Below are positions 3,950 to 53,863 of a stretch of DNA of 64,000 nucleotides, piece after piece (within the stretch, counting starts at the first letter, position 1; every line of letters starts with the position of its first letter). Source of the stretch: a virus. Taxonomy: Duplodnaviria; Heunggongvirae; Uroviricota; Caudoviricetes. Location of the stretch: IMG/VR virus record IMGVR_UViG_3300013383_000019; one strand, given 5' to 3'. The translations under genes were made by a program, and so were the position numbers. The notes beneath the pieces are model-generated. The model made no database searches and was not told the DNA's origin. It saw only the letters and a list, made by a program, of their open reading frames with translations.

Positions 3950-3968
3950 TAAAGGGAACATTTTAATG
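3950..3968 (-). promoter_or_regulatory. Conserved phage promoter motif AAAATGTTCCCTTTATTA; copy 1 of 5, upstream of the primase gene.
   Basis: Reverse complement of taataaagggaacatttt, about 30 nt upstream of the primase start on the minus strand. Confidence 0.55.
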
Positions 3969-4020
3969 GCCGTTTTTTCAGTTTGGCGAAAAAAATTTTT
4001 GCGGCAGCCGCAGAAGCATT

Positions 4021-4108
4021 GTTAAATATTTCACATTGAAATGAAAAACTTAAGTGAACGAATGGATATGGTCTAGGGAAGAGTAGGGATATATACTTCG
4101 TATATATA
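4021..4108 (+). repeat. Copy A of the 90 bp regulatory repeat module. It contains aaaacttaagtgaac and the palindrome atatatacttcgtatatat.
   Basis: About 85-90% identical to 4231..4317 and to the inverted copy 20645..20735. Confidence 0.8.
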
Positions 4109-4230
4109 AACTGTAATATTTGGGAGCTGCGGTCTTGGCGGTTTGTCTCCGACCTTTGGTCATGACCTTGACCTCAGCCTTCGGCCTTCGGCCTTGGCCA
4201 GACCATGAAATTAGTTATTACGATATACAT

Positions 4231-4317
4231 GTTAAATATTTCACATTGAAACAAAAAACTTAAGTGAACATGAGGATATCGGTCTTGGGAAGAGTAGGAT
4301 ATATACTTCGTATATAT
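4231..4317 (+). repeat. Copy B of the 90 bp regulatory repeat module, a direct tandem of copy A.
   Basis: Sequence identity to 4021..4108. Confidence 0.8.
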
Positions 4318-4481
4318 GGGCTCAGGTTCTGATCTTGAAATAAGGGGAGTTTCTGCACTTCTTCGCAGCTTCGCTCTGCTCAGAAGTACAGAAATGTCAT
4401 CGCTTCGGAACGGCCTGCGGCCTTCGCAGCTTCGGCCTTGGGACCTTGGGGCAGGGGCCTCATACCTTCTTGGAATTATCG

Positions 4482-4505
4482 TTAAATAATTCACATTAAA
4501 ACAAG
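4482..4505 (+). repeat. Partial copy C of the 90 bp module (gttaaataattcacattaaaacaa).
   Basis: Matches the 5' end of copies A and B. Confidence 0.5.
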
Positions 4506-5249
4506 GGGCGCGGCTTCGCAATTTCGTGGCTTCGCGGCTTCGCGGCTTCGGCCGTTGTCTTCGCTCCTGGGGGCTTCAGCTTCAAAGAAAAAATATCTCT
4601 GCAACGGGAAGGTTATGCCCGAAACCCACTCCCAATATATCCGACAACGGTTAAGGCCGAAATTTATTTCGATATTTATCGAAGCAAAATGGCGGGTTTT
4701 GGACGTTTTTCAGGCATTTTTCAGGGGGATTGGCGGAGCATTTGGGCGTCTTTGAAGGCCATTTTATGATATAGTTTAATAACGAATTCACCATGAAATG
4801 AGCGACCAGAGAGTGAACAGCCAGAGAAGCTGGCGCGAGCTGAGGTGAAATGGGTAAAGATTGTGCAAAGTTATGGCTGGGAATGCGAAAATATGTTGAT
4901 ATGTAACAGGCATAGAGGATTTGGAAGGCCGCCACACGCCACAAACGTAAACTATCATAACAGGTCATAATATGCCATTATGTCCTGTTATCTTTTTAAC
5001 AATACACATGCTTTTTCTAATAAATATAATGTGTATCGATATGCAATAAAGCGAATAAAAGCCATGGCAAGGCAATGCCTAGCGTCGAACTAGGTAAACG
5101 AGCGTTTACATCATGACAATAGTTATTTATTTAACAATTAAACACTCATTTAATCGTTCACAACAGTAAACATCTGTTTACCTTTTCGTTAAATATTTAA
5201 CGTAGTCCAGCCCAAAGCGCTTCACTTTGCTGAAGCGTCTGCCTTGGCT

Positions 5250-5435
5250 CTCCACCCCTCCACCCCTCCACCCCTCCACCCCTCGGAGGGAAGCGCTCTA
5301 CCCTGATAAAGCGCTTACCCCCGATGCCCTGCCTTCGCCGTCCTTCGCCGTCCTTCGCCGTCCTTCGCCTTCCTTCCCTTCCTTCCCTTCCTTCCTCCCT
5401 CCCTGCCTTCCCTTCCCTTCCCTTCCCTTCCCTAT
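5250..5435. repeat. Polypyrimidine tract on the plus strand, polypurine on the minus strand, with (CCACCCCT)4, (CCTTCGCCGT)3-4 and (CCTTC/CCCTT)n runs. The minus strand carries G4-capable GGGAAG / GGAGGGGT repeats.
   Basis: Direct reading of the sequence: ccacccctccacccctccacccctccaccc ... ccttcccttcccttcccttccc. Confidence 0.8.
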
Positions 5436-5552
5436 ATAGCACCATAATACCAGTTAGATATATCTAACGCCATCCTTTTTGCTATATAATAGGTAGAAAC
5501 CGCCGCCAAGCAAAAAGTTGCGAAAAAAAGCAAAAAAAATTTGCAGAAGGGG

Positions 5553-5581
5553 TTGACATACACTGCATAGTGTGCTATCAT
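5553..5581 (+). promoter_or_regulatory. Sigma70-type promoter: TTGACA, 17 bp spacer, extended TGcTATCAT.
   Basis: Consensus -35 box, exact 17 bp spacing and an extended -10; about 270 nt upstream of the ATG at 5852. Confidence 0.6.
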
Positions 5582-5589
5582 GCGTCATG

Positions 5590-5850
5590 TCAAGACACTG
5601 TGCAGTGTCTTCCGCACCTTGACAGTCCAATAGCCCCCGCCCCCGTCGCAGGGATTGCGCCCCATGGGTGCGCGCCGTCGGTGTATCCGGCAAGGGCGCG
5701 CGAAAAAGCCCACAAGCGCATGATATGCGATAGAGGACGGGCGCACAAGAGCATTTTTCCGCCGCTTGCAGGATTCCTTCCCTGCCAAAAAGCTTATTAA
5801 GGTTACCCAAAAATAATTTAACAGCGGCGCACGCCGCAGAAGGAGAAAAC
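5590..5850 (+). other. Long GC-rich 5' leader, about 260 nt, with a perfect hairpin (aagacactg-tg-cagtgtctt); possibly a structured regulatory RNA.
   Basis: Lies between the promoter and the RBS aaggaga; an inverted repeat at 5590-5612; C- and G-rich tracts. Confidence 0.3.
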
Positions 5851-5851
5851 C

Positions 5852-7664: not shown

Positions 7665-7678
7665 CCTGCAAAATTGAG

Positions 7679-7964: not shown

Positions 7965-8112
7965 ATAACGATGCGGGAAATTTGTAAATTCCTGCATCGC
8001 CCATCGCCACATCGCGGAAATTTACAAATTTGTCGGATCGTCTGATTGCGGAAATTCTGGAATAGCCTGATTGCGGAAATTTATATTTAAGACATCGCGG
8101 AAATTTCAAAGG
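7965..8112 (+). promoter_or_regulatory. Array of five GATTGCGGAAAT(TT) / CATCGCGGAAATTT repeats with AAATTTGTAAATT palindromic cores; a putative operator and promoter region for the early operon.
   Basis: Five copies within 150 bp, immediately upstream of the RBS aaaggagga and the ATG at 8123. Confidence 0.55.
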
Positions 8113-8122
8113 AGGAATCCCC

Positions 8123-8269: not shown

Positions 8270-8271
8270 CA

Positions 8272-8917: not shown

Positions 8918-8919
8918 CC

Positions 8920-14890: not shown

Positions 14891-15868
14891 ATGCAGAAAG
14901 TCAACGTGAACGCGAACGGAACTTCCAAGCCTACCACCCTTGAAGATATCGCGAAAATCGTCGGGTGCAGCGAGAGCCACGCCTATTGCGTTCTTACCGG
15001 CAGGAACAATGGAACAGACGCAGATAAAATTCGCGAAGTCGCCCGGAAGATGAATTATGATCCACGCAAGGCAAAGCTGAAAAGAAGCTGGGATATTGCT
15101 GATTTGGAAAAGATCCAGGCACCTGCCGCCCCTGTGGCGTCCTTCGCCGAGTTGGGAGAGTTGCTTGGCTTCAAGCGCCAAAATGTAAGTAGTTATTACT
15201 ACGGCTCGCAGGGTTCCCCCGCGCTCATCGCTTATGTCCGCGCCGCCGCAGAACGCTTTGGCTATATCCCCGGCCGGAAAAAGAAGCGCAGCAAACCTTC
15301 CGGCTACGTCTCCGCCAAAGACATCGCCCAGCGCACCGGCTATGCGGTCAGCACCGTATACAACGCGCTCGAATCCACCCCGAACAGGCTCCCCGCGGCC
15401 ACCGTTCAGAAAATCCGGGACGCCGCCAAAGAAATGGGCTATAACCCCGCCCGCTATCAGCCGCCGCACACCGGCAAGCAGAACCCGCACGCTTACTTGA
15501 AGCATTCCAATTTCCCCTCTCCGGAGGTCGAGAAGGAACGCATGGAAATCCTGCGCAAGCAGGGCTATACCAATGAAGAAATCGCCCAGAAAATCGGCAA
15601 GTCCTACCTGCACGTGCTCACCAAGCTCGGCGCGCAGCCCAAGGCCATCACGCACATGAGTCTCACCGCCGCGGCCGCAGATCGCCGCTTCCGCAAACAG
15701 CTGCGCGAACGCTATCAGCTGCAGGGCATGCTGGAAGAATACATCGCTGCCGAGGCCGAGCTGGAGCAGATGAAGGCAAAGGAATCCGCGCTCAAGGCCA
15801 AGATCGTCGAGCTCAAGCCGCATGTCGACCGCGCCGGCCAGCTCGATAAGCAAATTTCCGCAAAATAA
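14891..15868 (+). CDS. Regulator with four tandem helix-turn-helix domains (at least two LacI-type HTHs) and a C-terminal coiled coil; no ligand-binding domain.
   Basis: TLEDIAKIVGCSESHAYCVLTG...KIREVARKMNYDP and SAKDIAQRTGYAVSTVYNALES...KIRDAAKEMGYNP are LacI-HTH-like repeats; FAELGELLGFKRQNVSSYY and TNEEIAQKIGKSYLHVLTKLG are two further HTHs. Confidence 0.6.
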   Translation: MQKVNVNANGTSKPTTLEDIAKIVGCSESHAYCVLTGRNNGTDADKIREVARKMNYDPRKAKLKRSWDIADLEKIQAPAAPVASFAELGELLGFKRQNVSSYYYGSQGSPALIAYVRAAAERFGYIPGRKKKRSKPSGYVSAKDIAQRTGYAVSTVYNALESTPNRLPAATVQKIRDAAKEMGYNPARYQPPHTGKQNPHAYLKHSNFPSPEVEKERMEILRKQGYTNEEIAQKIGKSYLHVLTKLGAQPKAITHMSLTAAAADRRFRKQLRERYQLQGMLEEYIAAEAELEQMKAKESALKAKIVELKPHVDRAGQLDKQISAK

Positions 15869-15896
15869 TTTTGCACAGGTGAAAAAACAGGGGCTC

Positions 15897-15916
15897 AAAT
15901 GTTCCCTTTATTATAC
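15897..15916 (+). promoter_or_regulatory. Conserved phage promoter motif AAATGTTCCCTTTATTATA, copy 2 of 5.
   Basis: The same 18-mer as at 3950(-), 29139, 48355 and 53843; about 30 nt upstream of the ATG at 15948. Confidence 0.55.
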
Positions 15917-18526: not shown

Positions 18527-18734
18527 GCCGTGGACAGTTCATGTTCACCGTTGATGGAAGAGGTTCGCCGCGGTCGTGCAGTTCTGCAAAGACAACAAGC
18601 GCTATCGCGATTGCTGCCAGTAACAAGACGCCGAGAGGTGTTGCTCCGGCGGTCGGGAACAAAAATACCAAGCCGCTGTAATTGCTTACAGCTTGTAACA
18701 CGCAGGTTACGCCACGCAAGAGATAAATCATCAA
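18498..18734 (-). CDS. Small membrane protein, 78 aa; paralog of 36590..36871.
   Basis: Shared block NYSGLVFLFPTAGATPLGVLLLAAIAIALVVF; sits antisense within a plus-strand gene array. Confidence 0.45.
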   Translation of the reverse strand: MMIYLLRGVTCVLQAVSNYSGLVFLFPTAGATPLGVLLLAAIAIALVVFAELHDRGEPLPSTVNMNCPRLMRRPPIVP

Positions 18735-20637: not shown

Positions 20638-20644
20638 GTCCGCT

Positions 20645-20735
20645 ATATACGAAGTATATATCCTACTCTACTCAAGACCATTACCATTCGTTCACTTAAG
20701 TTTTTTGCTTAAATGTGATTGTTTTAACAATTATG
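20645..20735 (-). repeat. Inverted third copy of the 90 bp regulatory repeat module, about 170 bp upstream of antirepressor gene 20890.
   Basis: Its reverse complement aligns at about 85% with 4021..4108, including the palindrome tatatacgaagtatatat and aaaacttaagtgaac. Confidence 0.75.
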
Positions 20736-20889
20736 TGGTAATAATCATCCTGCCCGCCCATTTGACAAACCCGGTTCAATTTTGCTTAACTCTATGCGTG
20801 TCGGGTTTCACGGTCGACGGCGAAAAGGGTGCCGTGAAACGTGACAGGCTTCTCTACTACCACAGATCAGAAACTGAAAGGAGTTCAAG

Positions 20890-24527: not shown

Positions 24528-24533
24528 GCGCCT

Positions 24534-25052: not shown

Positions 25053-25067
25053 CAGAAGGAGCGCCCC

Positions 25068-25337: not shown

Positions 25338-25409
25338 TTATAATAAAGTTGACGCTCCGCAGAAAATGTATTATAATTTTTAAGGAAACCAAGCGGAAGG
25401 AGGATCTGC

Positions 25410-27630: not shown

Positions 27631-27714
27631 GCAAAACTGTCAAAAATAGCCCGTCCCCGCCGCGAATTTTTGACGCGGCGTTAAATAAATAAGAACGTTC
27701 GTTCGCATTTCCTC

Positions 27715-27743
27715 TTGACAATTCCTTCCGCGTCGGGTATCAT
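27715..27743 (+). promoter_or_regulatory. Sigma70-type promoter: TTGACA, 17 bp spacer, TATCAT.
   Basis: Consensus boxes 27 nt upstream of the ATG at 27770. Confidence 0.55.
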
Positions 27744-29088: not shown

Positions 29089-29138
29089 AATAAAAATTTT
29101 TTCAAAGAAAATTTTCGAAAACTGAAAAAACAGCGCCA

Positions 29139-29158
29139 AAAATGTTCCCTTTATTATT
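29139..29158 (+). promoter_or_regulatory. Conserved phage promoter motif, copy 3 of 5.
   Basis: aaaatgttccctttattatt about 35 nt upstream of the TTG start at 29192. Confidence 0.55.
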
Positions 29159-30825: not shown

Positions 30826-31377
30826 ATGAATCTTTCTCCCAGCCAGGAAGATCAGATTTTTCGTTCCTGTATAAATCTGGTCTGGTCAGCTGTCCATCAG
30901 TTTAGACGCCGCAATGATAAAAATTATAGCGCCTGCGCGGAGGATCTCTTTCAGGAAGCGTCCATTGTTATGCTGGAGCATATCCGCCGCAGCCCCGATA
31001 TTGAAACGGCGCGCAAAGCCCCGCTTCTTGATATGACGAACGCAATGTGCCGCTACCTGATGGAGATGAATGTCGTCCATATCCCCAAGCGCACGACTGA
31101 TTTCACAAAAACCATTTCCTATCCCGTTGATTCGTCGATTATGTTCGATGGGCTGGATTATTATGCCAAAGAAGGCTCTACTGCGGAAGATATCGAGACA
31201 CAGGCTGATTTCGATATCTTCCTCGGCACCCTTTCCAAGCCTGAAAGAATACTTGTCCAGCAGAAAATGAACGGTGCCACCACGCGCGATGCGGGGCGTG
31301 CCGCCGGCTTTGGCGATGCTACGGCCATGCGCACCCTGCAGCGTATCCGAAAAAAATATGCGGCGTTCGCCGCCTGA
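30826..31377 (+). CDS. Sigma-70-family (region 2 and region 4) sigma-factor-like protein.
   Basis: Region 2-like NLVWSAVHQF and a region 4 HTH ERILVQQKMNGATTRDAGRAAGFGDATAMRTLQRIRKK. Confidence 0.55.
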   Translation: MNLSPSQEDQIFRSCINLVWSAVHQFRRRNDKNYSACAEDLFQEASIVMLEHIRRSPDIETARKAPLLDMTNAMCRYLMEMNVVHIPKRTTDFTKTISYPVDSSIMFDGLDYYAKEGSTAEDIETQADFDIFLGTLSKPERILVQQKMNGATTRDAGRAAGFGDATAMRTLQRIRKKYAAFAA

Positions 31378-33415: not shown

Positions 33416-35245
33416 ATGAATAACAGAGATCAGATGATCCGGTTCGCGGATCAGTATCTCGGCAATTTTAAGGTGAAACCCAAGCAGGATGGGGGCGAAG
33501 AAATCGTCCCGGAGTATTGCCCCTTCTGTCACGGCGGGGATAACGGGGATAAGGAAACCTTCGCGCTTTCCATCGATAAAGGGGTGTTTGTCTGCAAGCG
33601 CGGCACCTGCGGCAAGCGCGGGCACTTTGACGAGCTGGCCGAATTCTTCGGCGATACCAATGCCGCCCGCTCCGCTCGCTCCTCCAGCTTCGCCAAGCAA
33701 AAGCCTAAAGCGTGGAAACTCCCCGATACGCATCTCAACCCGCCCACGGAAGCGATCTATCAGTATTTTGAGAAGCGCTGCATCAGCCGCGAAACGGTCG
33801 ACGCCTTCAAAATTCAGTCCGACGACGCCGGCATGATCGTCTTCCCTTTTTATGAAAACGGCGTCAATGTCTTTGAGAAGTTCCGCCGGCCGTGGAAGCC
33901 GAAAGAGGGTGAAAAAGGAAAGGAGTGGCGCGCCCCCGGCACAAAGGCTGTTCTCTTCGGGATGGATATGTGCTCCTTCGCCCAGCCGCTCGTCATCACG
34001 GAAGGCCAGCTGGACGCCATGTCGCTTTATGAGGCCGGCGTCACCAACGTCGTTTCCGTCCCCTCCGGCTGCGAGGATTTCAGCTGGATTGAAAACTGCT
34101 GGGACTGGCTGGAAAAATTCAAGCGAATCGTTCTCTTTGGTGATAACGATGATCCCGGCCGCAAGATGGTTCAGCAGGTGGCCAAGCGGCTGGACGAGTC
34201 GCGGTGCGCTATCGTTGAGGATTATCCCTACTGGGAAGACCGCGGCAAGGAATGTAAGGATGCGAACGAAATTCTCTTTGCGTTGGGTCCATTCGAACTG
34301 GTCGATATGGTCGAGAACGCCCGACAGGTTCCCATCAAGGGTTTGCTCGATCTCGGCACCGTCACCCCGTATGACCCGACGACCGTTCCCCGAATCAAGA
34401 CGATGATCCCCGCGTTGGACGCGGCGATTGGTGGCTTGGTTGAGGGCGGGCTTACGGTTTTTACAGGTGACGCGGGCGGCGGAAAATCCACGCTAACGGG
34501 CTTGCTTCTTCTCAATGCAATCGAGCAAGGACACAATGTCTGCGCTTATTCGGGGGAGCTCCGTAAAGAAAAATTTCAGGAATGGATCAACCTCCAGTGC
34601 GCCGGTTCCGATTATATCGGTCTGAAATATGATTCCGTCCGCAGCAAACAGGTGCCTTCTCTCAGCTGGCAGGTTCAGCAGCGGCTTTCGGAATATTACG
34701 GCGGCAAGTTTTTTCTCTTCGATAATAACGAAATCTTCGAGCATAATCAGGCGGAATCCATTCTCGAAGTGTTTACCATGGCGGTTCGCCGCTATGGCTG
34801 CAAGCTTTTTCTTGTCGATAACCTGATGACTTCTCTCTCTGACGTCGATGAGGAAACCCGTGCGCAGGGCAAGTTTATCGGCGCGCTCAAAAAGTTTGCC
34901 GTTCGTTTTTCAGTCCATGTGCTGGCCGTTTGTCACCCGCGCAAGCGTAAAGCGGGCGAACAATTTGGGAAATTTGATGTCGCCGGTTCTTCACAGATCG
35001 TCAACCTTGCAGATTCCGCCATCGTTGTTGAGCGCCCGAATTTGCGCATCATCAAAAACCGCGAAGGCGGCATCGAAAAACTCATCGAGTGCTGTTATTG
35101 CGGCGATAGCCGCCGCATCTATCAGGCCGATAAAGGCGATCTGAATAATTTCAGCTGGAATAAGGAGGGAGTGCAGAAGCCTGACCCGCGCGCCGATTCC
35201 ATGCCGGAGTATGGCATCATGCTGGCTCAGACATTGCCGTTCTAA
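33416..35245 (+). CDS. Bifunctional DNA primase-helicase (Zn-ribbon, Toprim and DnaB/RepA-like helicase).
   Basis: CPFCHGGDNGDK..CKRGTCGKRGH zinc ribbon; Toprim VITEGQLDAMS..LFGDNDDPGRK; Walker A GDAGGGKST and Walker B LFLVDNLM. Confidence 0.8.
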   Translation: MNNRDQMIRFADQYLGNFKVKPKQDGGEEIVPEYCPFCHGGDNGDKETFALSIDKGVFVCKRGTCGKRGHFDELAEFFGDTNAARSARSSSFAKQKPKAWKLPDTHLNPPTEAIYQYFEKRCISRETVDAFKIQSDDAGMIVFPFYENGVNVFEKFRRPWKPKEGEKGKEWRAPGTKAVLFGMDMCSFAQPLVITEGQLDAMSLYEAGVTNVVSVPSGCEDFSWIENCWDWLEKFKRIVLFGDNDDPGRKMVQQVAKRLDESRCAIVEDYPYWEDRGKECKDANEILFALGPFELVDMVENARQVPIKGLLDLGTVTPYDPTTVPRIKTMIPALDAAIGGLVEGGLTVFTGDAGGGKSTLTGLLLLNAIEQGHNVCAYSGELRKEKFQEWINLQCAGSDYIGLKYDSVRSKQVPSLSWQVQQRLSEYYGGKFFLFDNNEIFEHNQAESILEVFTMAVRRYGCKLFLVDNLMTSLSDVDEETRAQGKFIGALKKFAVRFSVHVLAVCHPRKRKAGEQFGKFDVAGSSQIVNLADSAIVVERPNLRIIKNREGGIEKLIECCYCGDSRRIYQADKGDLNNFSWNKEGVQKPDPRADSMPEYGIMLAQTLPF

Positions 35246-35847
35246 TGAGAAAGAAAATTCGTCCGCCGCTCACTGATGCGCAGCGCGCCTTCCTCGAGCG
35301 GAATTATGGGCTGCTTGTCCTCTATGCTTCAAAGCTCGCACGCTACCGGCGGGATTTGGGGTTCGATGATTCGCTTGGGCTCGTCCATCTTGTTGCGGTT
35401 TACGCCGTGCAGAGCTATGTCCCCGGCAAATGCGCCTGGTCGACTTATCTCTGGCATCAGGTTCGCAGCGAGCTCTCCCATCTTAACGCGCACAATAACA
35501 CGCAGTCCCGTAAACCAGAGAGTGGCGTCGGTTTTCTTTCCGATATGATGATCGACTATTATCTCCCCGGCGATCAGCGCTGTATCACCGATGCAGACGC
35601 CTTTATGGATGCGCAGCGCATCGTTTCTTATATGAAATCCATTGTCGGCGAGGATGCGGCACGGCTATATCTGCGTTATCATATAGCCGGCAAAACCTGT
35701 CAGTCGCTCGGTGACGAGCTCGGGCTCAGCCGCCAACGCGTTCAGCAGCGCGTCGCGGAAACGGGCGCGCGAATTCGGACAAAATTAATGGAGGGAAAAC
35801 AATGGCTAGGTATCGCAGATGGGATCGTGGGGTCGTCTCCACATTGA
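35245..35847 (+). CDS. Second sigma-70-family sigma-factor-like protein.
   Basis: Region 2-like LGLVHLVAVYAVQSY and a region 4 HTH SLGDELGLSRQRVQQRVAETGARIRTKL. Confidence 0.55.
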   Translation: MRKKIRPPLTDAQRAFLERNYGLLVLYASKLARYRRDLGFDDSLGLVHLVAVYAVQSYVPGKCAWSTYLWHQVRSELSHLNAHNNTQSRKPESGVGFLSDMMIDYYLPGDQRCITDADAFMDAQRIVSYMKSIVGEDAARLYLRYHIAGKTCQSLGDELGLSRQRVQQRVAETGARIRTKLMEGKQWLGIADGIVGSSPH

Positions 35848-46800: not shown

Positions 46801-48354
46801 GCTTTTATCGACGGGGCGACAGCGGATCGATACGGATATCTAAAAAACGATCTTCTTTCCGTCACCGTCGTCAACATCAACACCGCCGCCTACAAGGCCG
46901 CCAATATCCCCCTCCCCTCTGTTAACGAACTGCTCGCCATGTGCCCGCCGGATGATCCAGTCTGGGATATGTACGCCAAAGGCTACACCATGGGGCTCAA
47001 TCAGGTTGAGCGCGAGAAGGCCACTGAAAAGGTCGCCCGCTATAAGCCGCGCAATATTACCGAGCTGGCCGCGTTCGTCGCCGCCATCCGCCCGGGCTTC
47101 AAGTCGATGATCGATACATTCCTCGCCCGCCGGCATTTCGATTATGGTATCCCCTCGCTGGATAACCTGCTTCAGACGAAAGAAATTCCCGACAGCTTCC
47201 TCATGTTTCAGGAGCAGATCATGAAGGTCCTCCAGCATGGCGGTTTCACCGGGGCCGAATCCTACGCCGCCATCAAGGCCATCTCGAAGAAGCATCCCGA
47301 AAAGGTGCTCGCTCTCAAGGAAAAGTTCCGCGCCACGTTCTCTCAGCGCATCGTGGAGGAGGAGCATGTCACTGAGGCCGAAGCTCTCGCCACCACCGAT
47401 AAAATCTGGCAGATCATCAACGATTCCTGCTCCTATCTTTTTAATGCATCGCATGCCACCTGCGTCGCGCTGGATAGTCTTTACGGCGCATGGCTCAAGG
47501 CGCACTATCCTTATCAGTATTACACCACCCTGCTTCGCGCCTACGCCGCCAAGAAGGATAAAGACCGCATCGCCAAAGCCAAGGAGGAAATGCGTCGGGC
47601 GTTCGGCATCCGCGTCGTCGCTTGCAAGTTCGGGCAGGATAACCGCGATTTCTTTATCGATGAAAGCGCGCACACCATCGCCGACGCGCTCACCTCCGTC
47701 AAGCACGTCAGTAGAAAAGTCGCCGACGCGCTCTATAAAATGCGCGATACGCTGTATCTTTACTTCACCGATCTGCTTTACGATATGGATATGTCTCCGG
47801 CCTTCGACGCTACAAGCATCACCGCGCTCATCAAGATGGGATACTTCAGCGATTTCGGCGGCTCCGCCAAACTGCTCAAGCTCTTTCAGGAGTTCAAGTC
47901 CGGCGAGAACCGGTTCTATAAAGGGCTCGTTGAGAAGACACAGCAGAAACGCCTCGTCGCCCTGCGCGATCTGGAAGCAGCTTTGCCGGATGAGGATCTC
48001 CCCATGGAAGAAATCATCCCCTTCGAGTGCGATTATTTCGGTGCCCCCCTCAGCGTCTATCCCGAAAAGAAGGGCTGCTACGCCGTCATCGATGTGGATG
48101 AAAAATACAGCCCCAAGCTGAAGCTCTATAGCGTCTCCACCGGAGACACCGGTGTGATGAAAATTCGCAAGCCCGATTTTGCTAAAAATCCCGTCAAGGC
48201 TGGCGACGTCATCAAGCTCCTTGGCTGGCAGAAGAAGCCCGCTTATCAGTATCAGGACGGCAAACGTTCTATCAAACCCGGCGTGACCGAGCTTTGGATG
48301 GACGGCTACAAAAAAATTTCCGTTTCGCCCGCTCAAACTGAAAAAGCGGGGTGA
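43843..48354 (+). CDS. dnaE: DNA polymerase III alpha-subunit-like (DnaE-type, N-terminal PHP domain) replicative polymerase interrupted by an intein.
   Basis: PHP motifs HKHDHISN and ATDSHF; polymerase core; RBS aaggggtggagg; the track ORF 43438..48354 carries an unsupported 5' extension. Confidence 0.75.
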   Translation: MYVNYHKHDHISNIMLADSVATMEDYAKRAVELNQTVLSSCNHGTQGNYWECAELAEKYGLKWRYVTEAYFVKDRFEKDKSNCHLILAAKTCKGVGDLNYALSEANITGYYYRPRIDLELLMALDPKDVFVTTACVGGIWKYGAEEAERLVTLLNDHFRGSFMLEVQAHNVDKQKDVNRFVLDLYRKYNIPLIAATDSHFIYPEDSKLRDQLLESHHLKYEDEEGWDMDYPSEKHLLDRFKAQGVLSVAQINEAMENTNVFLDFEDVSFDKRRKLPAAYPGMTQEERNQKYLDLVHQAWDRYKAEVPQERWPEYEEAIRYETDAVTGTNTSDYFLIDNRIVDTAKREGGVLTQSGRGCFTDTARVPTLTGLKQISQVVPGDVVIDKDGDYQKVIETFSYDIDEPLVEIQAPANKMFGSYPTCTLDHRVLVCRLNGSYDWVEASRLKKGDLLCVPKIVQPASQTAEVVDLSKYISRASMFDGDHIFELRKDMMREAFGWEILMKKFHISRSALYNFVVGRTSAEVRRGPGVYLNKAKREILDYYGVDTQEALTQKYKDTCFRLMSRWVVKDALYYEFLGMMYGDGWVRHRNDGSYVCGIAINAENEKNIYNRKIFETMASRVGGTIYEAKAKNKKLVQLTLHASSFAKYLGCTYFISKKGNDKVVPDEILLLDNEKSKAFLSGLMRTDGCFAESDRKCFDNTSPSLMNAFNILCMKAGEKPPRLTVRDRWFDKRGYNCKTSYKWVIPVYSTPYGMSRKISENDKYWLIPVTGINLLPRQKCKVYDLHIENSHSYLLNHMVVHNSGVSFLTNMLLGFSSVDRLKMPVTMYPDRFISKERLSTGQMPDLDLNCGNVEVFEKAQAEVMGEWHSAQMVAFGTLKRLSAWKMYCRSTNVAFETANAISDSLKKYELDVKYAEDDEDREAIDPFDYVPKEYHEQLRMSNKYLGMVDSISPSPCSYLLTDQDIRREIGLYRINSKTGKKGTIYAAFIDGATADRYGYLKNDLLSVTVVNINTAAYKAANIPLPSVNELLAMCPPDDPVWDMYAKGYTMGLNQVEREKATEKVARYKPRNITELAAFVAAIRPGFKSMIDTFLARRHFDYGIPSLDNLLQTKEIPDSFLMFQEQIMKVLQHGGFTGAESYAAIKAISKKHPEKVLALKEKFRATFSQRIVEEEHVTEAEALATTDKIWQIINDSCSYLFNASHATCVALDSLYGAWLKAHYPYQYYTTLLRAYAAKKDKDRIAKAKEEMRRAFGIRVVACKFGQDNRDFFIDESAHTIADALTSVKHVSRKVADALYKMRDTLYLYFTDLLYDMDMSPAFDATSITALIKMGYFSDFGGSAKLLKLFQEFKSGENRFYKGLVEKTQQKRLVALRDLEAALPDEDLPMEEIIPFECDYFGAPLSVYPEKKGCYAVIDVDEKYSPKLKLYSVSTGDTGVMKIRKPDFAKNPVKAGDVIKLLGWQKKPAYQYQDGKRSIKPGVTELWMDGYKKISVSPAQTEKAG
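44914..46248 (+). mobile_element. Intein of 445 aa with a LAGLIDADG homing endonuclease, inside the DnaE-like gene.
   Basis: N-terminal splice block G|CFTDTARV; C-terminal VVHN|S; two LAGLIDADG motifs, LGMMYGDGWV and LSGLMRTDGCF. Confidence 0.7.
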
Positions 48355-48375
48355 AAAATGTTCCCTTTATTATAT
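48355..48375 (+). promoter_or_regulatory. Conserved phage promoter motif, copy 4 of 5.
   Basis: aaaatgttccctttattatat 30 nt upstream of the ATG at 48405. Confidence 0.55.
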
Positions 48376-48404: not shown

Positions 48405-49487
48405 ATGGAAACAAGAGATTGGCGCAAAACGGTGGAAGATATGGCCGCCGAGCGTGAGCGCATCCGATCTCAACGTATCAAAAAAATAATCCTTATCGCC
48501 GCCTGCGCGCTTCTTGTGCTTGTACTTAGCGTCAACGCAGTGGGAGTCGTTCCGTATAACCATACCGGCGTACTGCGTCGGGCGGGAGTTGTCCAGAAGG
48601 AAGGCGTGTCAGAAGGCTGGTTTCTTAAAATCCCGTTTGTCGATTCGCTTGATCTAATCTCCAATCAGGTCCAGACGCTGCGTATCGCCAGCGGCACTTC
48701 GAAGCCAACCACGTCTGATACCGCCGAAACAAAAGATCGTCAGCTCGTGCCTGTCTTTGAGTTCGAGATTCAGCATCAGCTCGCGCCGGAAAAGTCTTAC
48801 GATGTGTATACCAACTACGGTAAGAATTACACCGGTGTCCTGGTCGAGTCCAACGCTCTGGCGATTATCAAACAGGTCTTCTCTCTTTATGATAGCGAAG
48901 ATATCGTCAATAATAAGGAAGCAATTCCCGCGCAGATCGCCGAGCGGCTGGATGAGATCACGAAACCGTACGGTATCAATATTCTCCGCGTCAACATGAA
49001 GACGTACGATTTTACGCCGGAGTATACTGCCATCCTTGAGGAGCGTGCCCGCCTCAGCGCTGAACTCACCAACACCGAACTGCGCCAACAGAAAGAAAAA
49101 ATTTCCGCGCAAACCGAATACGACGTCGCCGTCAAACAGGCCGAACAGAAAGCCGAGCAGGAACGCATCAAGGCGGAAAGCGATCAAGCCGTCGCGCTGA
49201 TCAACGCACAGGCGTCCGCCGAGGCTGAAAAGATCCGTGTGGATAACGAAGCCTATGTGATCAAGACCCGTGCCGCGGCTGATAAGCAGGCCAGGCTGGA
49301 TGCCGCCGAAGCTACCAAGGCTGAATTGGAAGCCAGCAAGGCCGGCTTGAGCGAGCTTGTAATCCAACAGCAGATGATCGAAAAATGGAACGGCCAGCTG
49401 ATGCCCAACTTCGGCAGCGGCAGCGGTTTCAATTTTGCGAATCTGACCAATGTTCTCGAACAATATCTCCTTGGAGGTGAAGAATAA
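48405..49487 (+). CDS. SPFH/band-7 (prohibitin or HflK-like) membrane protein.
   Basis: N-terminal TM helix; SPFH-like core; long Ala/Glu/Lys coiled coil. Confidence 0.55.
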   Translation: METRDWRKTVEDMAAERERIRSQRIKKIILIAACALLVLVLSVNAVGVVPYNHTGVLRRAGVVQKEGVSEGWFLKIPFVDSLDLISNQVQTLRIASGTSKPTTSDTAETKDRQLVPVFEFEIQHQLAPEKSYDVYTNYGKNYTGVLVESNALAIIKQVFSLYDSEDIVNNKEAIPAQIAERLDEITKPYGINILRVNMKTYDFTPEYTAILEERARLSAELTNTELRQQKEKISAQTEYDVAVKQAEQKAEQERIKAESDQAVALINAQASAEAEKIRVDNEAYVIKTRAAADKQARLDAAEATKAELEASKAGLSELVIQQQMIEKWNGQLMPNFGSGSGFNFANLTNVLEQYLLGGEE

Positions 49488-49865
49488 ATGGAAGAACTGC
49501 GCTTTGTAAACGCCGGCTTGAAGCATGCCGTCTGCGCGAATCATGTCATCGCCGTTCTTAACCCGCGCACCATGACCTCGAAAGAATAGGTGAAAGCCGC
49601 CAAAGGCCGTAAGCATCTGCTTGATGCGACGGTCGGGCGCAAAATCCGCTCCGTCATTCTCTTTAACGAGGGCACCGTTATGCTCTCCTCTCTCCGGTTT
49701 GAAACGCTGCTCATGCGCCTCAACGGCGATATGCGCGGCAACCTCTATGATCGGGATAGCGAATACGCTGAAACCGATCCTGAAAACACGGACGGCGTCG
49801 AGGCGGATTCCCTCATTAATAATGAAGAAGGAAAGGAGGAATCAACCTTCGATGAAGGTAATTGA
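49488..49865 (+). CDS. RemA/DUF370-like protein with an in-frame TAG at codon 34 (49587-49589) and an acidic C-terminal extension.
   Basis: MEELRFVNAGLKHAVCANHVIAVLNPRTMTSKE*VKAAKGRKHLLDATVGRKIRSVILFNEGTVMLSSL aligns with B. subtilis RemA (..[46 protein letters not shown]..) on both sides of the TAG. Confidence 0.55.
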
Positions 49866-51409: not shown

Positions 51410-51419
51410 TGTAATGTAG

Positions 51420-51767
51420 ATGTTGATTGATTTCCTTGGCGTTTTTCTTGGGGCGGCGGTACTTACCGCGCTCATCTGGATATTGACGCACTGGGTTTCC
51501 TATGTGGCCGCGTGGGTGCTGGCCGTCACGGTCTGCGTTGCAGGCACGTTCCTGCGCGCATGGATTGATATTAAATATGGTGAAAGGATTCGAAATTATG
51601 GCAAACGAAATGAAAGAACTGTGGGATCTGCTCAACTTTCTTGCGGAGAAGGAGGAGCCGAAAACAGACTCTTCCCTGAAGACGGAGAAACCGGCAAAGC
51701 CGGAGGGAGTGAAGGAATTCCCGAAGCCGAAGGAAGACCTGCCGGAGGAAATGAAGCAGGCGATTAA
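51420..51767 (+). CDS. Hypothetical membrane protein; its true 3' end is uncertain because it overlaps 51598..51879.
   Basis: Track ORF with N-terminal TM helices; the C-terminus looks like out-of-frame read-over. Confidence 0.3.
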   Translation: MLIDFLGVFLGAAVLTALIWILTHWVSYVAAWVLAVTVCVAGTFLRAWIDIKYGERIRNYGKRNERTVGSAQLSCGEGGAENRLFPEDGETGKAGGSEGIPEAEGRPAGGNEAGD

Positions 51768-51879
51768 CGCCGGCCGCACGCGCGCCGCTTATTTCGCCGC
51801 TCTTTACAAGATGCTTCTCTCGCTGGAGATCCCGGACGACGTCGCTTATGACGTGACGCTCGCCGATGCCCGCAGATGA
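51598..51879 (+). CDS. Hypothetical protein, 93 aa.
   Basis: RBS aaagga. Confidence 0.4.
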   Translation: MANEMKELWDLLNFLAEKEEPKTDSSLKTEKPAKPEGVKEFPKPKEDLPEEMKQAINAGRTRAAYFAALYKMLLSLEIPDDVAYDVTLADARR

Positions 51880-52241
51880 CGCTTTCTCAGCTAAACGAAG
51901 CTGTGCGCCAGGCGGTTGCGGGTACGCTGTGTGACCCTGACAAGGTGGAAGTCCTCATTTCCCTGGGCTTCCCCTCGTTGGGGCCTCCGGCGGGTGTCGA
52001 AGTTTCCCATGGTTATCTCGGCTTTGACTGGGAGGGCGAAGGGTTCCGACTGGTTCCCGCCAGCGAGCTGGTTGAATGGCGCAAGAACCGGGATAACCCC
52101 CTCCCTCCGCTGGAACAAACCATGGATGATGGGCGGCGCAAGCTTCATACGCTGCGCTGCCCCGCCTGCCCCAACGAAGTTAAACGAACCGATCGATATT
52201 GCCCGCAATGCGGGCAGAGATTAAAAAGGAGCACGCAATGA
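51876..52241 (+). CDS. Hypothetical protein with a C-terminal zinc ribbon.
   Basis: CPACPNE..CPQCGQ. Confidence 0.5.
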   Translation: MTLSQLNEAVRQAVAGTLCDPDKVEVLISLGFPSLGPPAGVEVSHGYLGFDWEGEGFRLVPASELVEWRKNRDNPLPPLEQTMDDGRRKLHTLRCPACPNEVKRTDRYCPQCGQRLKRSTQ

Positions 52242-52960
52242 TTTGGCTTACCGGCGATAAACACGGCGATTATAGTTCCGTCGAACTTTTCTGCGAGTCC
52301 CATGACGTCGGTAAAGACGCAGGCGGAGATATCATGGTTGTGCTTGGCGATAACGGGGTGAATTACTTTGGCGGCAAACGGGATAGAAAACTCAAGGCCG
52401 AGCTCACCACTTTGCCGCTGACCTTCTTTATGGTTCGCGGCAATCATGATCAGCGCCCCAGCCGCAAGGTCTGCCGCGAGGAAGACTATGTCAGTTCTTA
52501 TCTTTCAGGCCCCGTGCTCGTCGAGGATGAGTTTCCAAATATTCTCTATGCGAAAGACGGCGGCCTGTATGATTTCAGCGGCATGAGCGTCATGGTGATC
52601 GGCGGTGCTTACAGCATCGATAAATTTATCCGGCTCGAGCGTCAGGCGCAGGGATTCCCGCAATATCGCTGGTTCCCCGATGAACAGCTTTCGAAATCTG
52701 AAAGAGATTCTATTCTGGAAACCGCGCGCGTCCATCGCCCCGATGTTATCCTCTCTCATACCTGCCCCCAGAGCATGATCCCCTGGGATCGATGCGCTCC
52801 CAATATTTATGGAGGCCCTCCCGATTATACCATGGAACGCTGGATGGACGAGGTAGACGCCGCCGCGCTCGAGCCTGAATGGTTTTGCGGGCACTGGCAT
52901 CTTGATCGCCGCGTGCCGCCCCGCACCCGTTTTCTGTATCATGATTTTATTGATTTCTGA
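52238..52960 (+). CDS. Calcineurin-like metallophosphoesterase (lambda-PPase-type Ser/Thr phosphatase).
   Basis: Motifs LTGDKHGD, VLGDNGVNYFG and VRGNHDQ; RBS aaaaggag. Confidence 0.7.
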   Translation: MIWLTGDKHGDYSSVELFCESHDVGKDAGGDIMVVLGDNGVNYFGGKRDRKLKAELTTLPLTFFMVRGNHDQRPSRKVCREEDYVSSYLSGPVLVEDEFPNILYAKDGGLYDFSGMSVMVIGGAYSIDKFIRLERQAQGFPQYRWFPDEQLSKSERDSILETARVHRPDVILSHTCPQSMIPWDRCAPNIYGGPPDYTMERWMDEVDAAALEPEWFCGHWHLDRRVPPRTRFLYHDFIDF

Positions 52961-52969
52961 GGTGATAAA

Positions 52970-53326
52970 ATGCTTGGCGATAATGTAATCTTCGGGGTCG
53001 GTAAAGACGTCCCCGTCGTCGTGAACAGCGAAGGCGGCAAGCAAAGCCGCAGCCCTTATGCTTTCCAGCTTCTGCCCGTGCATGCAATGTTTGCCGCGGC
53101 TGAAGTCGCGAAGGCCGGTGCTGAGAAATACGGCGAAACCTTCGCCTGCCGTAACTATACAAAAATCCCGCCCGAGGAGCATATCGGGCATTGCATCCAA
53201 CATCTGTACGCTTATCTTGCCGGCGATATCAGCGATGATCATCTGGCGCACGCCATTGTCCGCGCGCTCTTCGCTTATGAGACAGATAAGCTGGCGCGTG
53301 AAAGCGAGGGGACGCCCTGTGCCTGA
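52970..53326 (+). CDS. Hypothetical protein, 118 aa.
   Basis: Track ORF. Confidence 0.45.
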   Translation: MLGDNVIFGVGKDVPVVVNSEGGKQSRSPYAFQLLPVHAMFAAAEVAKAGAEKYGETFACRNYTKIPPEEHIGHCIQHLYAYLAGDISDDHLAHAIVRALFAYETDKLARESEGTPCA

Positions 53327-53828
53327 AACCGCCGTCGATGTCTTCGCCTGCGATCTCTCGCTCCATCGCCCCGGCTTTGCGCTGCTTCATTGTGAGAATA
53401 ATACGATCACCGTGCGCGAGCTCAGCAATGTCAACAACAAGTATGCCCGCAAGAAAACGCATGGCCAGATGCTTCTGGAGATTGCGCGCGAATAGAAGCG
53501 ATATATGACCACCTACCCAAACGCCATATTAGTTCGCGAGAAAGCAATTTACCCCGGCCGCTATCAGATGAAGACCATCGGGGTTTTGCATAAGGTTGTC
53601 GGCGTGGCCGATCTTTATGCCTGGCATTTGACAGGCAGAGAGTTTGAAGAGATCGATCCTCGCATGACCAAGCGCATCGTCACCGGCGATGCTAACGCGG
53701 AGAAAGATCGTGTCGCCGAAATGCTGGATGATTACGTTGGCGCTCAGCGCTATGCCTGCGACGACGAATCTGATGCGGTAGCGGTAGGCGTCGCGTGGCT
53801 TATTCAAAATAAAATTTTTCAAATGTGA
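53319..53828 (+). CDS. RuvC-like Holliday-junction resolvase with an in-frame TAG at 53493-53495.
   Basis: GTG start. N-terminal VDVFACDLSLHRPGFALL (RuvC D-x-G/S-type motif); C-terminal DESDAVAVGVAW matches the RuvC D.ADA.A.A motif. Track ORFs 53058..53495 and 53505..53828 are in frame and are separated by TAG-AAG-CGA-TAT. Confidence 0.55.
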
Positions 53829-53842
53829 AAAAGGGGGCATGA

Positions 53843-53863
53843 AAATGTTCCCTTTATTATATG
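53843..53863 (+). promoter_or_regulatory. Conserved phage promoter motif, copy 5 of 5.
   Basis: aaaatgttccctttattatat 20 nt upstream of the ATG at 53883. Confidence 0.55.

What the first reader, a model, noticed from the sequence alone, without database searches (positions are those of the whole stretch)
3950..53863. Conserved phage-specific promoter motif AAAATGTTCCCTTTATTAT(A) in five places, plus two phage sigma-factor-like genes
An identical 18-19 nt motif sits 20-35 nt upstream of the start codons of five genes:
- the primase-polymerase (minus-strand copy, 3950-3968);
- the ORF at 15948;
- the Sak4-like recombinase (29139);
- the SPFH protein (48355);
- the NrdH/NrdD operon (53843).

It contains a -10-like TATTAT. 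There is no conserved -35 at sigma70 spacing. Instead there is an invariant ATGTTCCC block directly upstream. That pattern suggests recognition by a dedicated factor.

The window encodes two sigma-70-family proteins, at 30826..31377 and 35245..35847, that could be that factor. The motif occurs on both sides of the mid-window recombinase and defence island, which argues that the whole window is one element.
Basis: seen in the sequence. Interest (0 to 1): 0.6.

Follow-up and report, generated by a model that had tools for sequence, protein, structure and literature searches.

The report
Phage-specific bipartite promoter with phage sigma factors
A ~117 kb uncultured gut phage of Clostridia places one invariant two-block sequence (TGAAAAA, 10 variable bases, AAATGTTCCCTTTA) in front of its replication and nucleotide-metabolism operons, most likely as a promoter class read by a phage-encoded sigma factor; it is a real and well-conserved example of a known kind of regulation.

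Summary
Five near-identical copies lie in the window, against 0.02 expected by chance. All are intergenic or at gene ends, and all point at a downstream gene.

The element is bipartite: TGAAAAA-N10-AAATGTTCCCTTTA. The "-10-like TATTAT" is not conserved in the sixth copy outside the window or in related phages.

No reading fits a housekeeping sigma-70/sigma-A promoter. The same genome carries textbook TTGACA/TATAAT promoters elsewhere.

Both candidate genes are genuine but divergent sigma-70-family proteins.

Phages whose sigma-1 is only 28-34% identical keep the same gene order and usually a slightly altered version of the element. Both sites seen in each such genome carry the same alteration. 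This points to a phage-encoded reader. Sigma-1 (30826-31377) travels with the element in every lineage. Sigma-2 (35245-35847) was not found in the more distant ones.

My best reading is a middle-class promoter read by host core polymerase plus phage sigma-1, which also amplifies its own operon. No transcription data exist, so the factor assignment is inference.

This is a new member of a known kind.

Side finding: the phage carries an amber-suppressor tRNA behind a sixth motif copy, and a few in-frame TAG codons.

The parts
3950..3980 (-). Promoter copy 1. TGAAAAA is at 3974-3980 and AAATGTTCCCTTTA at 3950-3963. It precedes the AEP primase-polymerase gene (ATG 3918; gene 2494-3918). A hairpin plus T-run lies just upstream at 4000-4012.
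   Evidence: Pfam AEP-TOTE
15880..15910 (+). Promoter copy 2 (block 2 preceded by C instead of A). It lies in the 79-nt gap between the multi-HTH gene (ends 15868) and the small ORF starting at 15948.
29123..29153 (+). Promoter copy 3. It lies between the tyrosine integrase (ends 29088) and the operon AAA_24/Sak4-like, SSB, sigma-1, DUF2828, primase-helicase, sigma-2.
   Evidence: The same position is conserved in eight lineages.
48339..48369 (+). Promoter copy 4. Its upstream block lies inside the last codons of the DnaE gene, and the DnaE stop TGA (48352-48354) lies in the spacer. It precedes the SPFH gene 48405-49487.
53826..53856 (+). Promoter copy 5. The TGA of TGAAAAA is the stop codon of ORF 53505-53828. 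It precedes the NrdH-like gene (53883-54091, with an in-frame TAG at 53949-53951) and NrdD (54092-56413).
30826..31377 (+). Sigma-1: 183 aa, sigma-70 family, two helical domains joined by a disordered linker. It is the favoured reader of the motif.
   Evidence: TIGR02937 aligned over its full length, E 3.9e-6. PHROG sigma families match. Orthologues in L041 and L043 pass the curated cutoff. The AF2 model's listed Foldseek matches are all sigma factors or sigma-containing polymerase complexes. It sits in the same syntenic position as the motif in all lineages examined.
35245..35847 (+). Sigma-2: 200 aa, sigma-70 family. Regions 2.3-2.4 (WSTYLWHQVRSE) and 4.2 (LSRQRVQQR) are recognisable. Its start overlaps the primase-helicase stop.
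   Evidence: TIGR02937 at 2.8e-10 and Pfam Sigma70_r4 at 4.4e-5, both below their cutoffs. The AF2 model's listed Foldseek matches are all sigma factors or sigma-containing polymerase complexes. No homologue was found in the distant relatives L040, L041, L043 and L044.
14891..15868 (+). Multi-HTH protein: 325 aa, three LacI-headpiece-like HTHs, a fourth HTH and a coiled coil. It ends just upstream of copy 2. It is the rival candidate for the factor that binds the motif.
   Evidence: A 77% identical orthologue sits next to the copy-2 orthologue in L035.
27692..27743 (+). Canonical sigma-A promoter (TTGACA-17-TATCAT, 27715-27743) preceded by a LexA/Cheo-like box (27692-27705). It drives the RHH gene, a small ORF and the integrase. 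No intergenic terminator-like hairpin was predicted before copy 3, so it is a possible ignition source for the sigma operon.
5553..5581 (+). Canonical sigma-A early rightward promoter (TTGACA-17-TGcTATCAT) with palindromic operators. It shows what a housekeeping promoter looks like in this genome.

Best explanation
The element is the core of a phage-specific class of promoters, probably of middle timing. Host core RNA polymerase reads it when loaded with a phage-encoded sigma factor, most likely sigma-1 (30826-31377).

TGAAAAA acts as the -35 element. The invariant block AAATGTTCCCTTTA covers the extended -10, -10 and discriminator positions, roughly -18 to -5, with TCCCTT or GTTCCC in place of TATAAT. 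Transcription is predicted to start 5-8 nt after TTTA, which leaves a 15-30 nt leader carrying the ribosome-binding site.

The promoters head these units:
- the AEP primase
- a unit starting at 15948
- the recombination, replication and sigma operon
- the SPFH unit
- the NrdH/NrdD unit
- outside the window, the region upstream of a tRNA array that includes an amber suppressor

Sigma-1 sits in one of these operons, so the circuit would amplify itself. It could be primed by read-through from the LexA-box sigma-A promoter at 27715.

Shown here: the motif, its architecture, its conservation and its concerted variation; the sigma-family membership of both proteins; and the mismatch with sigma-A consensus.

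Inferred: promoter activity, the start site, which factor reads the motif, and the timing.
For: - **Not chance.** Five copies against 0.02 expected, with no degenerate copies.
- **Placement.** All copies are co-oriented with the next gene and lie 22-34 nt before its start.
- **Start of a transcription unit.** In relatives a hairpin plus T-run sits directly upstream of the element. A similar hairpin precedes copy 1.
- **Bipartite shape with sigma-type geometry.** TGAAAA is 17 bp from TCCCTT, with TG at -15/-14.
- **Selection on the two blocks only.** The two blocks are invariant in 20 distinct sequences from paralogous sites and relatives. The spacer and the bases after TTTA vary. Some of these sequences were retrieved with the pattern itself. 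Those found by protein homology show the same invariance.
- **Not sigma-A.** Of the five copies, the consensus scan was run over copies 1 and 3 and flagged only copy 1, weakly at 9 of 12. The best hexamer pairs score 8-9 of 12 at inconsistent positions. Textbook sigma-A promoters exist in the same genome.
- **Deep conservation with concerted change.** Genomes with sigma-1 at 28-34% identity keep the synteny and a variant element. L040 has TGAAAAA-N12-TGTTCCCATTA twice. L041 has TGAAAA[A/T]-N12-TGTTCCTATTA twice. L043 has TGAAATT-N13-TGTTTCCATTA. The variant is the same at both sites found in each of L040 and L041.
- **Sigma-1 travels with the element.** Sigma-1 is present in every lineage. Sigma-2 was not detected in L040, L041, L043 or L044.
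- **Not a host motif.** The 21-specified-base pattern occurs in only 4 stretches among 185,579 species genomes. Three are in Clostridia MAGs; the two that align beyond the promoter are syntenic with this phage.
- **Sigma genes behind their presumed target.** This is the usual layout for ECF-type sigmas (established knowledge).
Against: - There are no transcription data, so neither promoter activity nor the start site is shown.
- Both sigma genes lie downstream of copy 3. By analogy with SPO1 genes 33 and 34, that would make them late sigmas and the motif a middle promoter read by something made earlier.
- No independent promoter for sigma-1 was found in the conserved 57-82 bp gap before it.
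- In distant relatives a terminator-like hairpin precedes the element, which would limit priming by read-through.
- The -10 proposed here (C at -11) has no precedent that I could test.
- The absence of sigma-2 from distant relatives rests on partial contigs of 8-21 kb.
- L044 has lost TGAAAAA and keeps only a related block 2.
- About 34 kb of the genome, the structural module, was not seen.
Confidence: 0.45

Rival explanations
1. The promoters are read by host sigma-A holoenzyme recruited by a phage DNA-binding activator, in the manner of T4 MotA/AsiA, Mu Mor or P2 Ogr. The candidate is the early multi-HTH protein (14891-15868). It would bind the long asymmetric TGAAAAA...ATGTTCCCTTTA site and substitute for a -35 contact. 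The TA of TTTA would form the start of a weak -10.
For: - The multi-HTH protein has 3-4 tandem HTH units, which suits a long non-palindromic site.
- Its gene lies in the region headed by the canonical sigma-A early promoter, so it could be made before the motif-driven genes.
- It is conserved next to copy 2 in a relative.
- In the window, TATTAT has A at position 2 and T at position 6 in four of the five copies (TATTAA at copy 1). L041 has TATTAT directly after TGTTCC.
Against: - No hexamer with A at -11 and T at -7 keeps a fixed position across lineages. The bases after TTTA are ATAGTG, AGGGTG or GTGGTG in the tRNA copy, L025 and L032.
- The position that is conserved relative to TGAAAAA is TGTTCC, not a TATAAT-like hexamer.
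- I could not test for the multi-HTH protein in the distant relatives, because the contigs do not reach that region.
Confidence: 0.2
2. Sigma-2 (35245-35847) is the reader of the motif, or the two sigmas split the job. Sigma-1 would then serve another class, for example late promoters.
For: - Sigma-2 is closer to classical sigmas. Regions 2.3-2.4 and 4.2 are recognisable and it gives the better TIGR02937 score.
- Its region 4.2 motif SRQR resembles primary and TcdR-type sigmas, which read T-rich/A-rich -35 hexamers (PMC4031146).
- The -35 TGAAAA resembles TTGACA at 4 of 6 positions.
Against: - No sigma-2 homologue was found in L040, L041, L043 or L044, although all four keep a related element (L044 only a diverged block 2).
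- The gene at the sigma-2 position in L040 and L041 is unrelated to sigma-2.
- No separate late motif was found that would give sigma-1 another job. However, most of the late region was not available.
Confidence: 0.12
3. The element is a promoter for a host alternative sigma factor, such as an ECF or stress sigma of the Oscillospiraceae host, which the phage exploits.
For: - TGAAAAA resembles the TGAAAC -35 of Firmicutes ECF sigmas (own knowledge).
- High information content in both blocks is typical of ECF promoters.
Against: - The exact bipartite pattern is essentially absent from 185,579 species genomes apart from phage-like contigs.
- Block 2 changes in concert within each phage lineage.
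- The ECF hallmarks, AAC in the -35 and CGT in the -10, are missing.
Confidence: 0.07
4. The element is not a promoter. It could be a repressor operator, a leader-peptide or RNA element, or a boundary sequence that promotes recombination between gene modules.
For: - Very high identity between copies is also seen for operators and for recombination boundary sequences.
- The motif contains an ATG that could encode MFPLL.
Against: - There is no dyad symmetry.
- No consistent ribosome-binding site precedes the internal ATG, and the putative peptides differ in length and frame (read directly from the sequences).
- The variable spacer rules out a conserved hairpin (read directly from the alignments).
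- The strict orientation, the distance to start codons, and the terminator-then-element layout in relatives all fit a promoter.
Confidence: 0.08

Closest known systems
Bacillus phage SPO1 sigma cascade (gp28 middle promoters AGGAGA-N17-TTTNTTT; gp33/34 late promoters), from my own knowledge
   Same: - A large Firmicutes phage encodes small sigma-70-family proteins that redirect host core polymerase.
- The target promoters are bipartite, highly conserved, unlike the TTGACA/TATAAT consensus, and sit in front of replication genes.
- Sigma genes are themselves embedded in a regulated operon.
   Different: - There is no detectable sequence relationship. Sigma-2 has no tblastn match in 50,697 phage records. 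The sigma-1 family has only 164 clusters among 1.84 billion representatives.
- The motif is different.
- Here a sigma gene sits behind the same motif it is proposed to read.
ECF (group 4) sigma factors and their autoregulated promoters
   Same: - About 180-200 aa, with a sigma-2 and a sigma-4 domain joined by a linker.
- Both promoter blocks carry high information.
- The sigma gene's own operon is preceded by the target promoter in every lineage.
   Different: - No anti-sigma partner is evident.
- The -35 lacks the AAC signature and the -10 lacks CGT.
- The window's sigma-1 and sigma-2 score below the TIGR02937 cutoff.
TcdR/UviA/BotR/TetR group 5 sigma factors of clostridia (-35 TTTACA, -10 GTTATA; PMC4031146)
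   Same: - Small clostridial sigmas carried on mobile elements.
- The -10 begins with GTT.
- Sigma-2 carries the S-R-Q motif in region 4.2 that the paper proposes as a marker of the group.
- UviA is induced by DNA damage (own knowledge). That parallels the LexA-like box upstream of the sigma operon here.
   Different: - tblastn of sigma-2 against 72,556 plasmids finds no sigma homologue.
- The -35 is TGAAAAA, not TTTACA.
- Sigma-1 lacks SRQ.
T7-like or N4-like single-subunit RNA polymerase promoters
   Same: Near-identical copies of one long motif upstream of several operons.
   Different: - Those promoters are a continuous block of about 20 bp, or hairpins. This one is two blocks with a variable spacer.
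- No phage RNA polymerase gene was found in the roughly 83 kb examined.

Membership tests
Sigma-70-family sigma factor (sigma-1 and sigma-2) | Sigma-2 (regions 2.1-2.4) and sigma-4 (regions 4.1-4.2) domains detectable by profile | tested here: met
   TIGR02937 aligns over nearly its whole length (3-160 and 1-165 of 165) at E 3.9e-6 and 2.8e-10, both below the 42.9-bit cutoff. Sigma-1 orthologues in L041 and L043 score 46.6 and 45.3 bits, above the cutoff.
Sigma-70-family sigma factor (sigma-1 and sigma-2) | Fold of two helical domains matching solved sigma factors | tested here: met
   AF2 models have mean pLDDT of 66-69, with two confident helical domains and a disordered linker. The listed Foldseek PDB matches are all sigma factors or sigma-containing polymerase complexes, at modest E-values of 6e-4 to 1e-2.
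Sigma-70-family sigma factor (sigma-1 and sigma-2) | Binds core RNA polymerase and directs promoter-specific initiation | not testable with these tools
   Needs biochemistry or a reporter assay.
ECF (group 4) sigma | Own operon preceded by the cognate promoter (autoregulation) | tested here: inconclusive
   The element precedes the AAA_24, SSB, sigma-1 operon in all eight lineages. That sigma-1 is its reader is not shown.
ECF (group 4) sigma | -35 with an AAC signature and -10 with CGT/GTC at 16-17 bp | tested here: not met
   The -35 is TGAAAAA. AAC follows it only in three of the five copies. Block 2 is TGTTCC, 12-13 nt after TGAAAAA.
ECF (group 4) sigma | Co-transcribed anti-sigma factor | tested here: inconclusive
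   The neighbouring genes are SSB and DUF2828/DUF7788. No anti-sigma domain was reported. Small neighbouring ORFs were not analysed.
TcdR-like group 5 sigma | S-R-Q motif in region 4.2 (PMC4031146) | tested here: met
   Sigma-2 has LSRQRVQQR, and its relatives have S/T-R-Q. Sigma-1 lacks it.
TcdR-like group 5 sigma | Sequence similarity to UviA, TetR or BotR, and a TTTACA/GTTATA promoter | tested here: not met
   No sigma hit by tblastn against plasmids at E <= 1. The promoter blocks differ.
Housekeeping sigma-70/sigma-A promoter | TTGACA-like hexamer, 16-18 bp, TATAAT-like hexamer with A at position 2 and T at position 6, at a conserved position | tested here: not met
   Best pairs score 8-9 of 12 at positions that differ between copies. 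The scan, run over copies 1 and 3 only, flagged only copy 1, weakly. The TATTAT is not conserved in relatives.
Single-subunit phage RNA polymerase promoter | Continuous conserved block of about 20 bp, plus a phage RNA polymerase gene | tested here: not met
   The element has two blocks with a variable 10-nt spacer. No RNA polymerase gene was seen among the proteins annotated in the window and flanks. About 34 kb of the genome was not seen.

The most novel reading that the evidence does not exclude
A divergent, lineage-restricted phage sigma factor (sigma-1) recognises a -10 region built on GTTCCC/TCCCTT instead of TATAAT and amplifies its own operon. The same promoter class sits upstream of the phage's amber-suppressor tRNA array. 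One transcriptional switch would then time both DNA replication and the phage's partial change of genetic code, in which in-frame TAG codons become readable.
Probability: 0.25. Interest if true: 0.65.

Novelty: new member of a known kind. Interest (0 to 1): 0.45.

Why it matters
Phage-encoded sigma factors with their own promoter classes are textbook biology (SPO1, T4). Almost nothing is known about transcription programmes of uncultured gut Clostridia phages.

This case gives three things:
- A precisely defined, deeply conserved promoter element.
- A small candidate set of readers: sigma-1, sigma-2 and a multi-HTH protein.
- Natural variant pairs. Each lineage carries its own block-2 variant, which could be used directly in orthogonality and specificity experiments.

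It would also link promoter class to expression of a suppressor tRNA in a phage with in-frame TAG codons.

Tried and rejected
- **Close relatives in public phage collections.** There are none. Megablast of 28-50 kb against INPHARED gave no match. The exact 17-mer in IMG/VR gave only 12 single, chance-like hits, and the bipartite pattern gave none. Protein-guided IMG/VR scans gave nothing useful. The primase-helicase reaches at most 32% identity in GenBank phages.
- **phAss-1.** I considered this published TAG-recoded gut phage group (PMC10607447) as the identity of the phage. Its genome is 136 kb and it did not appear in the megablast of 28-50 kb, so I dropped it.
- **A second conserved promoter motif, for late genes.** K-mer counting over 52 upstream regions in about 83 kb found none comparable. 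Most of the structural module was not available.
- **An independent sigma-A promoter for sigma-1.** The gap before the gene has conserved segments but no convincing hexamer pair.
- **Leader peptide (MFPLL...) and RNA hairpin readings.** Rejected: there is no consistent ribosome-binding site, the frames and lengths differ, and the spacer is variable.
- **A sigma-A reading with nAAAAT as the -10.** Rejected because position 2 is C or G at copy 2 and in L025.
- **The upstream AAAATTTT tract as an UP element.** Downgraded. In relatives it is the loop and tail of a terminator-like hairpin.
- **The GCGGAAATTT repeat.** It occurs four times at 8012-8106 and once, inverted, just upstream of copy 2. 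With 2 mismatches allowed it is not above chance window-wide: 28 matches against 22 expected.
- **Whole-genome scan.** The complete genome could not be scanned. Look-ups reach only 10 kb beyond the window on each side.

Full report
**1. The observation**

The 19-mer AAAATGTTCCCTTTATTAT, searched with up to three mismatches, occurs exactly five times. Shuffles give a mean of 0.02 and never more than one.

| Copy | Position | Strand | Mismatches |
|---|---|---|---|
| 1 | 3946-3964 | - | 1 |
| 2 | 15896-15914 | + | 1 |
| 3 | 29139-29157 | + | 0 |
| 4 | 48355-48373 | + | 0 |
| 5 | 53842-53860 | + | 0 |

A profile built from the five sites recovers them at E of about 1e-11. Nothing else in the window scores better than E = 2.7. 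The set is therefore sharply bounded, and no copy lies inside a gene body. It is also the top direct-repeat family of the window.

Each copy points at the next gene and ends 22-34 nt before its start codon. The downstream genes:
- the AEP primase-polymerase (true start ATG 3918)
- a small ORF at 15948
- an AAA_24/Sak4-like gene (TTG 29192)
- an SPFH gene (48405)
- an NrdH-like gene followed by NrdD (53883 and 54092)

**2. What the element really looks like**

An invariant TGAAAAA lies exactly 10 nt upstream of AAATG. The full element is TGAAAAA-N10-AAATGTTCCCTTTA.

The window is about half of a ~117-119 kb phage genome that recurs in many metagenomes. Extending 10 kb beyond each end of the window revealed a sixth, weaker copy in the gap that precedes a six-tRNA array. 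It reads GTGAAAAAATGACCCTTAAAATGTTCCCTTTAATAG.

This copy and related phages keep both blocks intact. Some relatives were found by protein homology (L025, L026, L027-29, L034; sigma-1 about 68% identical). Others were found by pattern search (L030, L032, L033, L035-37). In all of them the 9-10 nt spacer changes, and the four to six bases after TTTA change: TTAT, ATAG, AGGG or GTGG.

In L030 only the ~110-nt promoter region is still alignable to the window at the DNA level, at 88% identity. The flanking DNA has diverged beyond blastn detection.

**3. It is not a housekeeping promoter**

The genome contains textbook sigma-A promoters:
- TTGACA-17-TGcTATCAT at 5553-5581, with palindromic operators
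- TTGACG-17-TATAAT at 25349-25377
- TTGACA-17-TATCAT at 27715-27743

At the motif sites, no hexamer pair scores above 8-9 of 12. The best pairs fall at different positions in different copies. No hexamer with A at position 2 and T at position 6 keeps its place across lineages.

The geometry nevertheless fits a sigma-type promoter. TGAAAA is 17 bp from TCCCTT, with TG at -15/-14. The 14-nt invariant block would span about -18 to -5, which is the stretch a sigma factor contacts.

In more distant relatives a terminator-like hairpin with a T-run sits directly upstream of TGAAAAA. A similar hairpin precedes copy 1. This is the layout expected at the start of an insulated transcription unit.

**4. 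The two sigma-like genes**

Both proteins align over the whole TIGR02937 sigma-70/ECF model, at E 3.9e-6 and 2.8e-10, below the curated cutoff. Sigma-1 also matches PHROG sigma families.

The AlphaFold models show two helical domains joined by a disordered linker. Every listed Foldseek match in the PDB is a sigma factor or a sigma-containing polymerase complex. Sigma-1 orthologues from distant relatives pass the curated cutoff.

Sigma-1 belongs to a small family. Only 164 clusters among 1.84 billion representatives match at E <= 1e-3, and nearly all are about 180 aa.

Sigma-2 has recognisable regions 2.3-2.4 and 4.2, and carries the SRQ motif noted for TcdR-type sigmas (PMC4031146). It has no BLAST-level relative among plasmid or phage records.

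**5. Which factor reads the motif?**

This cannot be settled without experiments, but comparative data help.

Sigma-1 orthologues that are only 28-34% identical sit in the same gene order: integrase, terminator-like hairpin, element, AAA_24, SSB, sigma-1, DUF2828, primase-helicase. Their elements are lineage-specific variants:

| Lineage | Element | Copies seen |
|---|---|---|
| L040 | TGAAAAA-N12-TGTTCCCATTA | 2 |
| L041 | TGAAAA[A/T]-N12-TGTTCCTATTA | 2 |
| L043 | TGAAATT-N13-TGTTTCCATTA | 1 |
| L044 | AAAAATGTCCCCATA, no TGAAAAA | 1 |

In L040 and L041 both sites carry the same variant. Such concerted change is what co-evolution with a trans-acting factor encoded by the phage would produce.

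Other evidence bearing on the choice of factor:
- The exact pattern is essentially absent from 185,579 species genomes. It occurs only on three contigs binned with Clostridia/Oscillospiraceae MAGs, two of them syntenic with this phage, plus one chance hit.
- Sigma-1 is present in all these lineages.
- No sigma-2 homologue was detected in L040, L041, L043 or L044. The gene at its position there is unrelated, and in L040 and L041 it has its own copy of the element. These contigs are partial, so the absence is provisional.
- The rival reader is the early 325-aa protein with three or four tandem HTH units (14891-15868). It ends just before copy 2 and is conserved there in a relative.

**6. Proposed circuit (inference)**

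1. Sigma-A promoters express early genes. One at 5553 has operators. One at 27715 is preceded by a LexA/Cheo-like box that is conserved in relatives.
2. The scan predicted no intergenic terminator-like hairpin between 27743 and the AAA_24 operon in this strain. Read-through could therefore deliver a first dose of sigma-1.
3. Sigma-1 then fires all copies of the element, including the one before its own operon, much as ECF sigmas do.
4. This switches on recombination, replication and nucleotide-metabolism genes and, possibly, the tRNA array.

The alternative is an SPO1-like order: an earlier factor reads the motif, and the two sigmas serve late genes. I cannot exclude it.

**7. Comparison with known systems, and verdict**

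The element works like SPO1 or ECF-type sigma-dependent promoters. It fails the tests for:
- a sigma-A promoter
- the ECF consensus signatures
- TcdR-type promoters
- single-subunit polymerase promoters

It is a new member of a known kind: a well-defined, deeply conserved promoter class in an uncultured phage lineage, with a short list of candidate readers. Interest is moderate. The side observation of a suppressor tRNA behind a sixth copy, plus a handful of in-frame TAG codons, raises it somewhat.

Noticed in passing
L022 13277-15117 (about 3-5 kb left of window position 1, on the window's minus strand); window 38215, 53949, 49587: The phage carries six tRNA genes, including a tRNA with anticodon CUA (an amber suppressor). 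TAG ends only 6 of 86 predicted genes. Several genes have in-frame TAG codons: the PAPS-reductase-like gene 37816-38730 (its TAG aligns with Lys in an uninterrupted orthologue), the NrdH-like gene 53883-54091, and ORF 49488-49865. There are about 10 in-frame TAGs in 83 kb, so this is light recoding rather than a fully recoded genome.
   Followed up: partly
window 27692-27743: A LexA/Cheo-like box (AGAACGTTCGTTCG) lies just upstream of a canonical sigma-A promoter that drives the RHH gene, a small ORF and the integrase. The box and promoter are conserved in four or five diverged relatives (GAACATTTGTTCG, GAACAAATGTTCT, CGAATATTTGTTCT). This suggests SOS control upstream of the sigma operon.
   Followed up: partly
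window 5553-5610: A strong sigma-A early promoter (TTGACA-17-TGcTATCAT) has an A-rich upstream tract. A perfect palindrome, AGACACTGTGCAGTGTCT, lies just downstream, and a related half-palindrome lies in the spacer. This looks like a repressor-operator switch.
   Followed up: no
window 7969-8122; 15852-15863: Four or five direct copies of T[CT]GCGGAAATTT lie within 150 bp upstream of ORF 8123. One exact inverted copy lies just upstream of motif copy 2. These could be operators or iterons. Window-wide, with 2 mismatches, the count is not above chance.
   Followed up: partly
window 3965-5851: This 1.9 kb gene-poor region lies between the two divergent arms. It holds two 210-bp tandem repeats containing the palindrome ATATATACTTCGTATATAT (4020-4320), with a third, inverted copy at 20641-20760. 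It also holds CCTTC-rich short tandem repeats at 5325-5435. It is a candidate origin of replication or regulatory region.
   Followed up: no
window 900-1820 and 42401-42811: Duplicated cassettes of about 420 bp and 370 bp. Each has a small ORF on the strand opposite to the surrounding genes and TGATATAATG-type extended -10 sequences. They resemble small toxin or membrane-peptide modules.
   Followed up: no
window 43438-48354: The DnaE-type DNA polymerase III alpha subunit (1638 aa) is interrupted by an intein (Pfam Intein_splicing, residues 526-937). The primase-helicase of relative L027 carries a LAGLIDADG insertion.
   Followed up: no
window 40397-42051; 23517-26925; 22863-23075: The accessory gene load in the replication arm includes:
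- a PARP-like ADP-ribosyltransferase (PF00644), next to an ORF whose L025 counterpart has a faint Macro-domain hit (40397-42051)
- an AAA_21 ATPase and a DUF6088/AbiEii pair with its own sigma-A promoter (23517-26925)
- an AcrIC5-like small ORF (22863-23075)
- two Bro-N/ANT antirepressors

These annotations come from the precomputed Pfam hits on identical contigs.
   Followed up: no
window 18571-18699 and 36732-36860: A 129-nt direct repeat at 71% identity occurs in two intergenic regions 18 kb apart. Its function is unknown.
   Followed up: no
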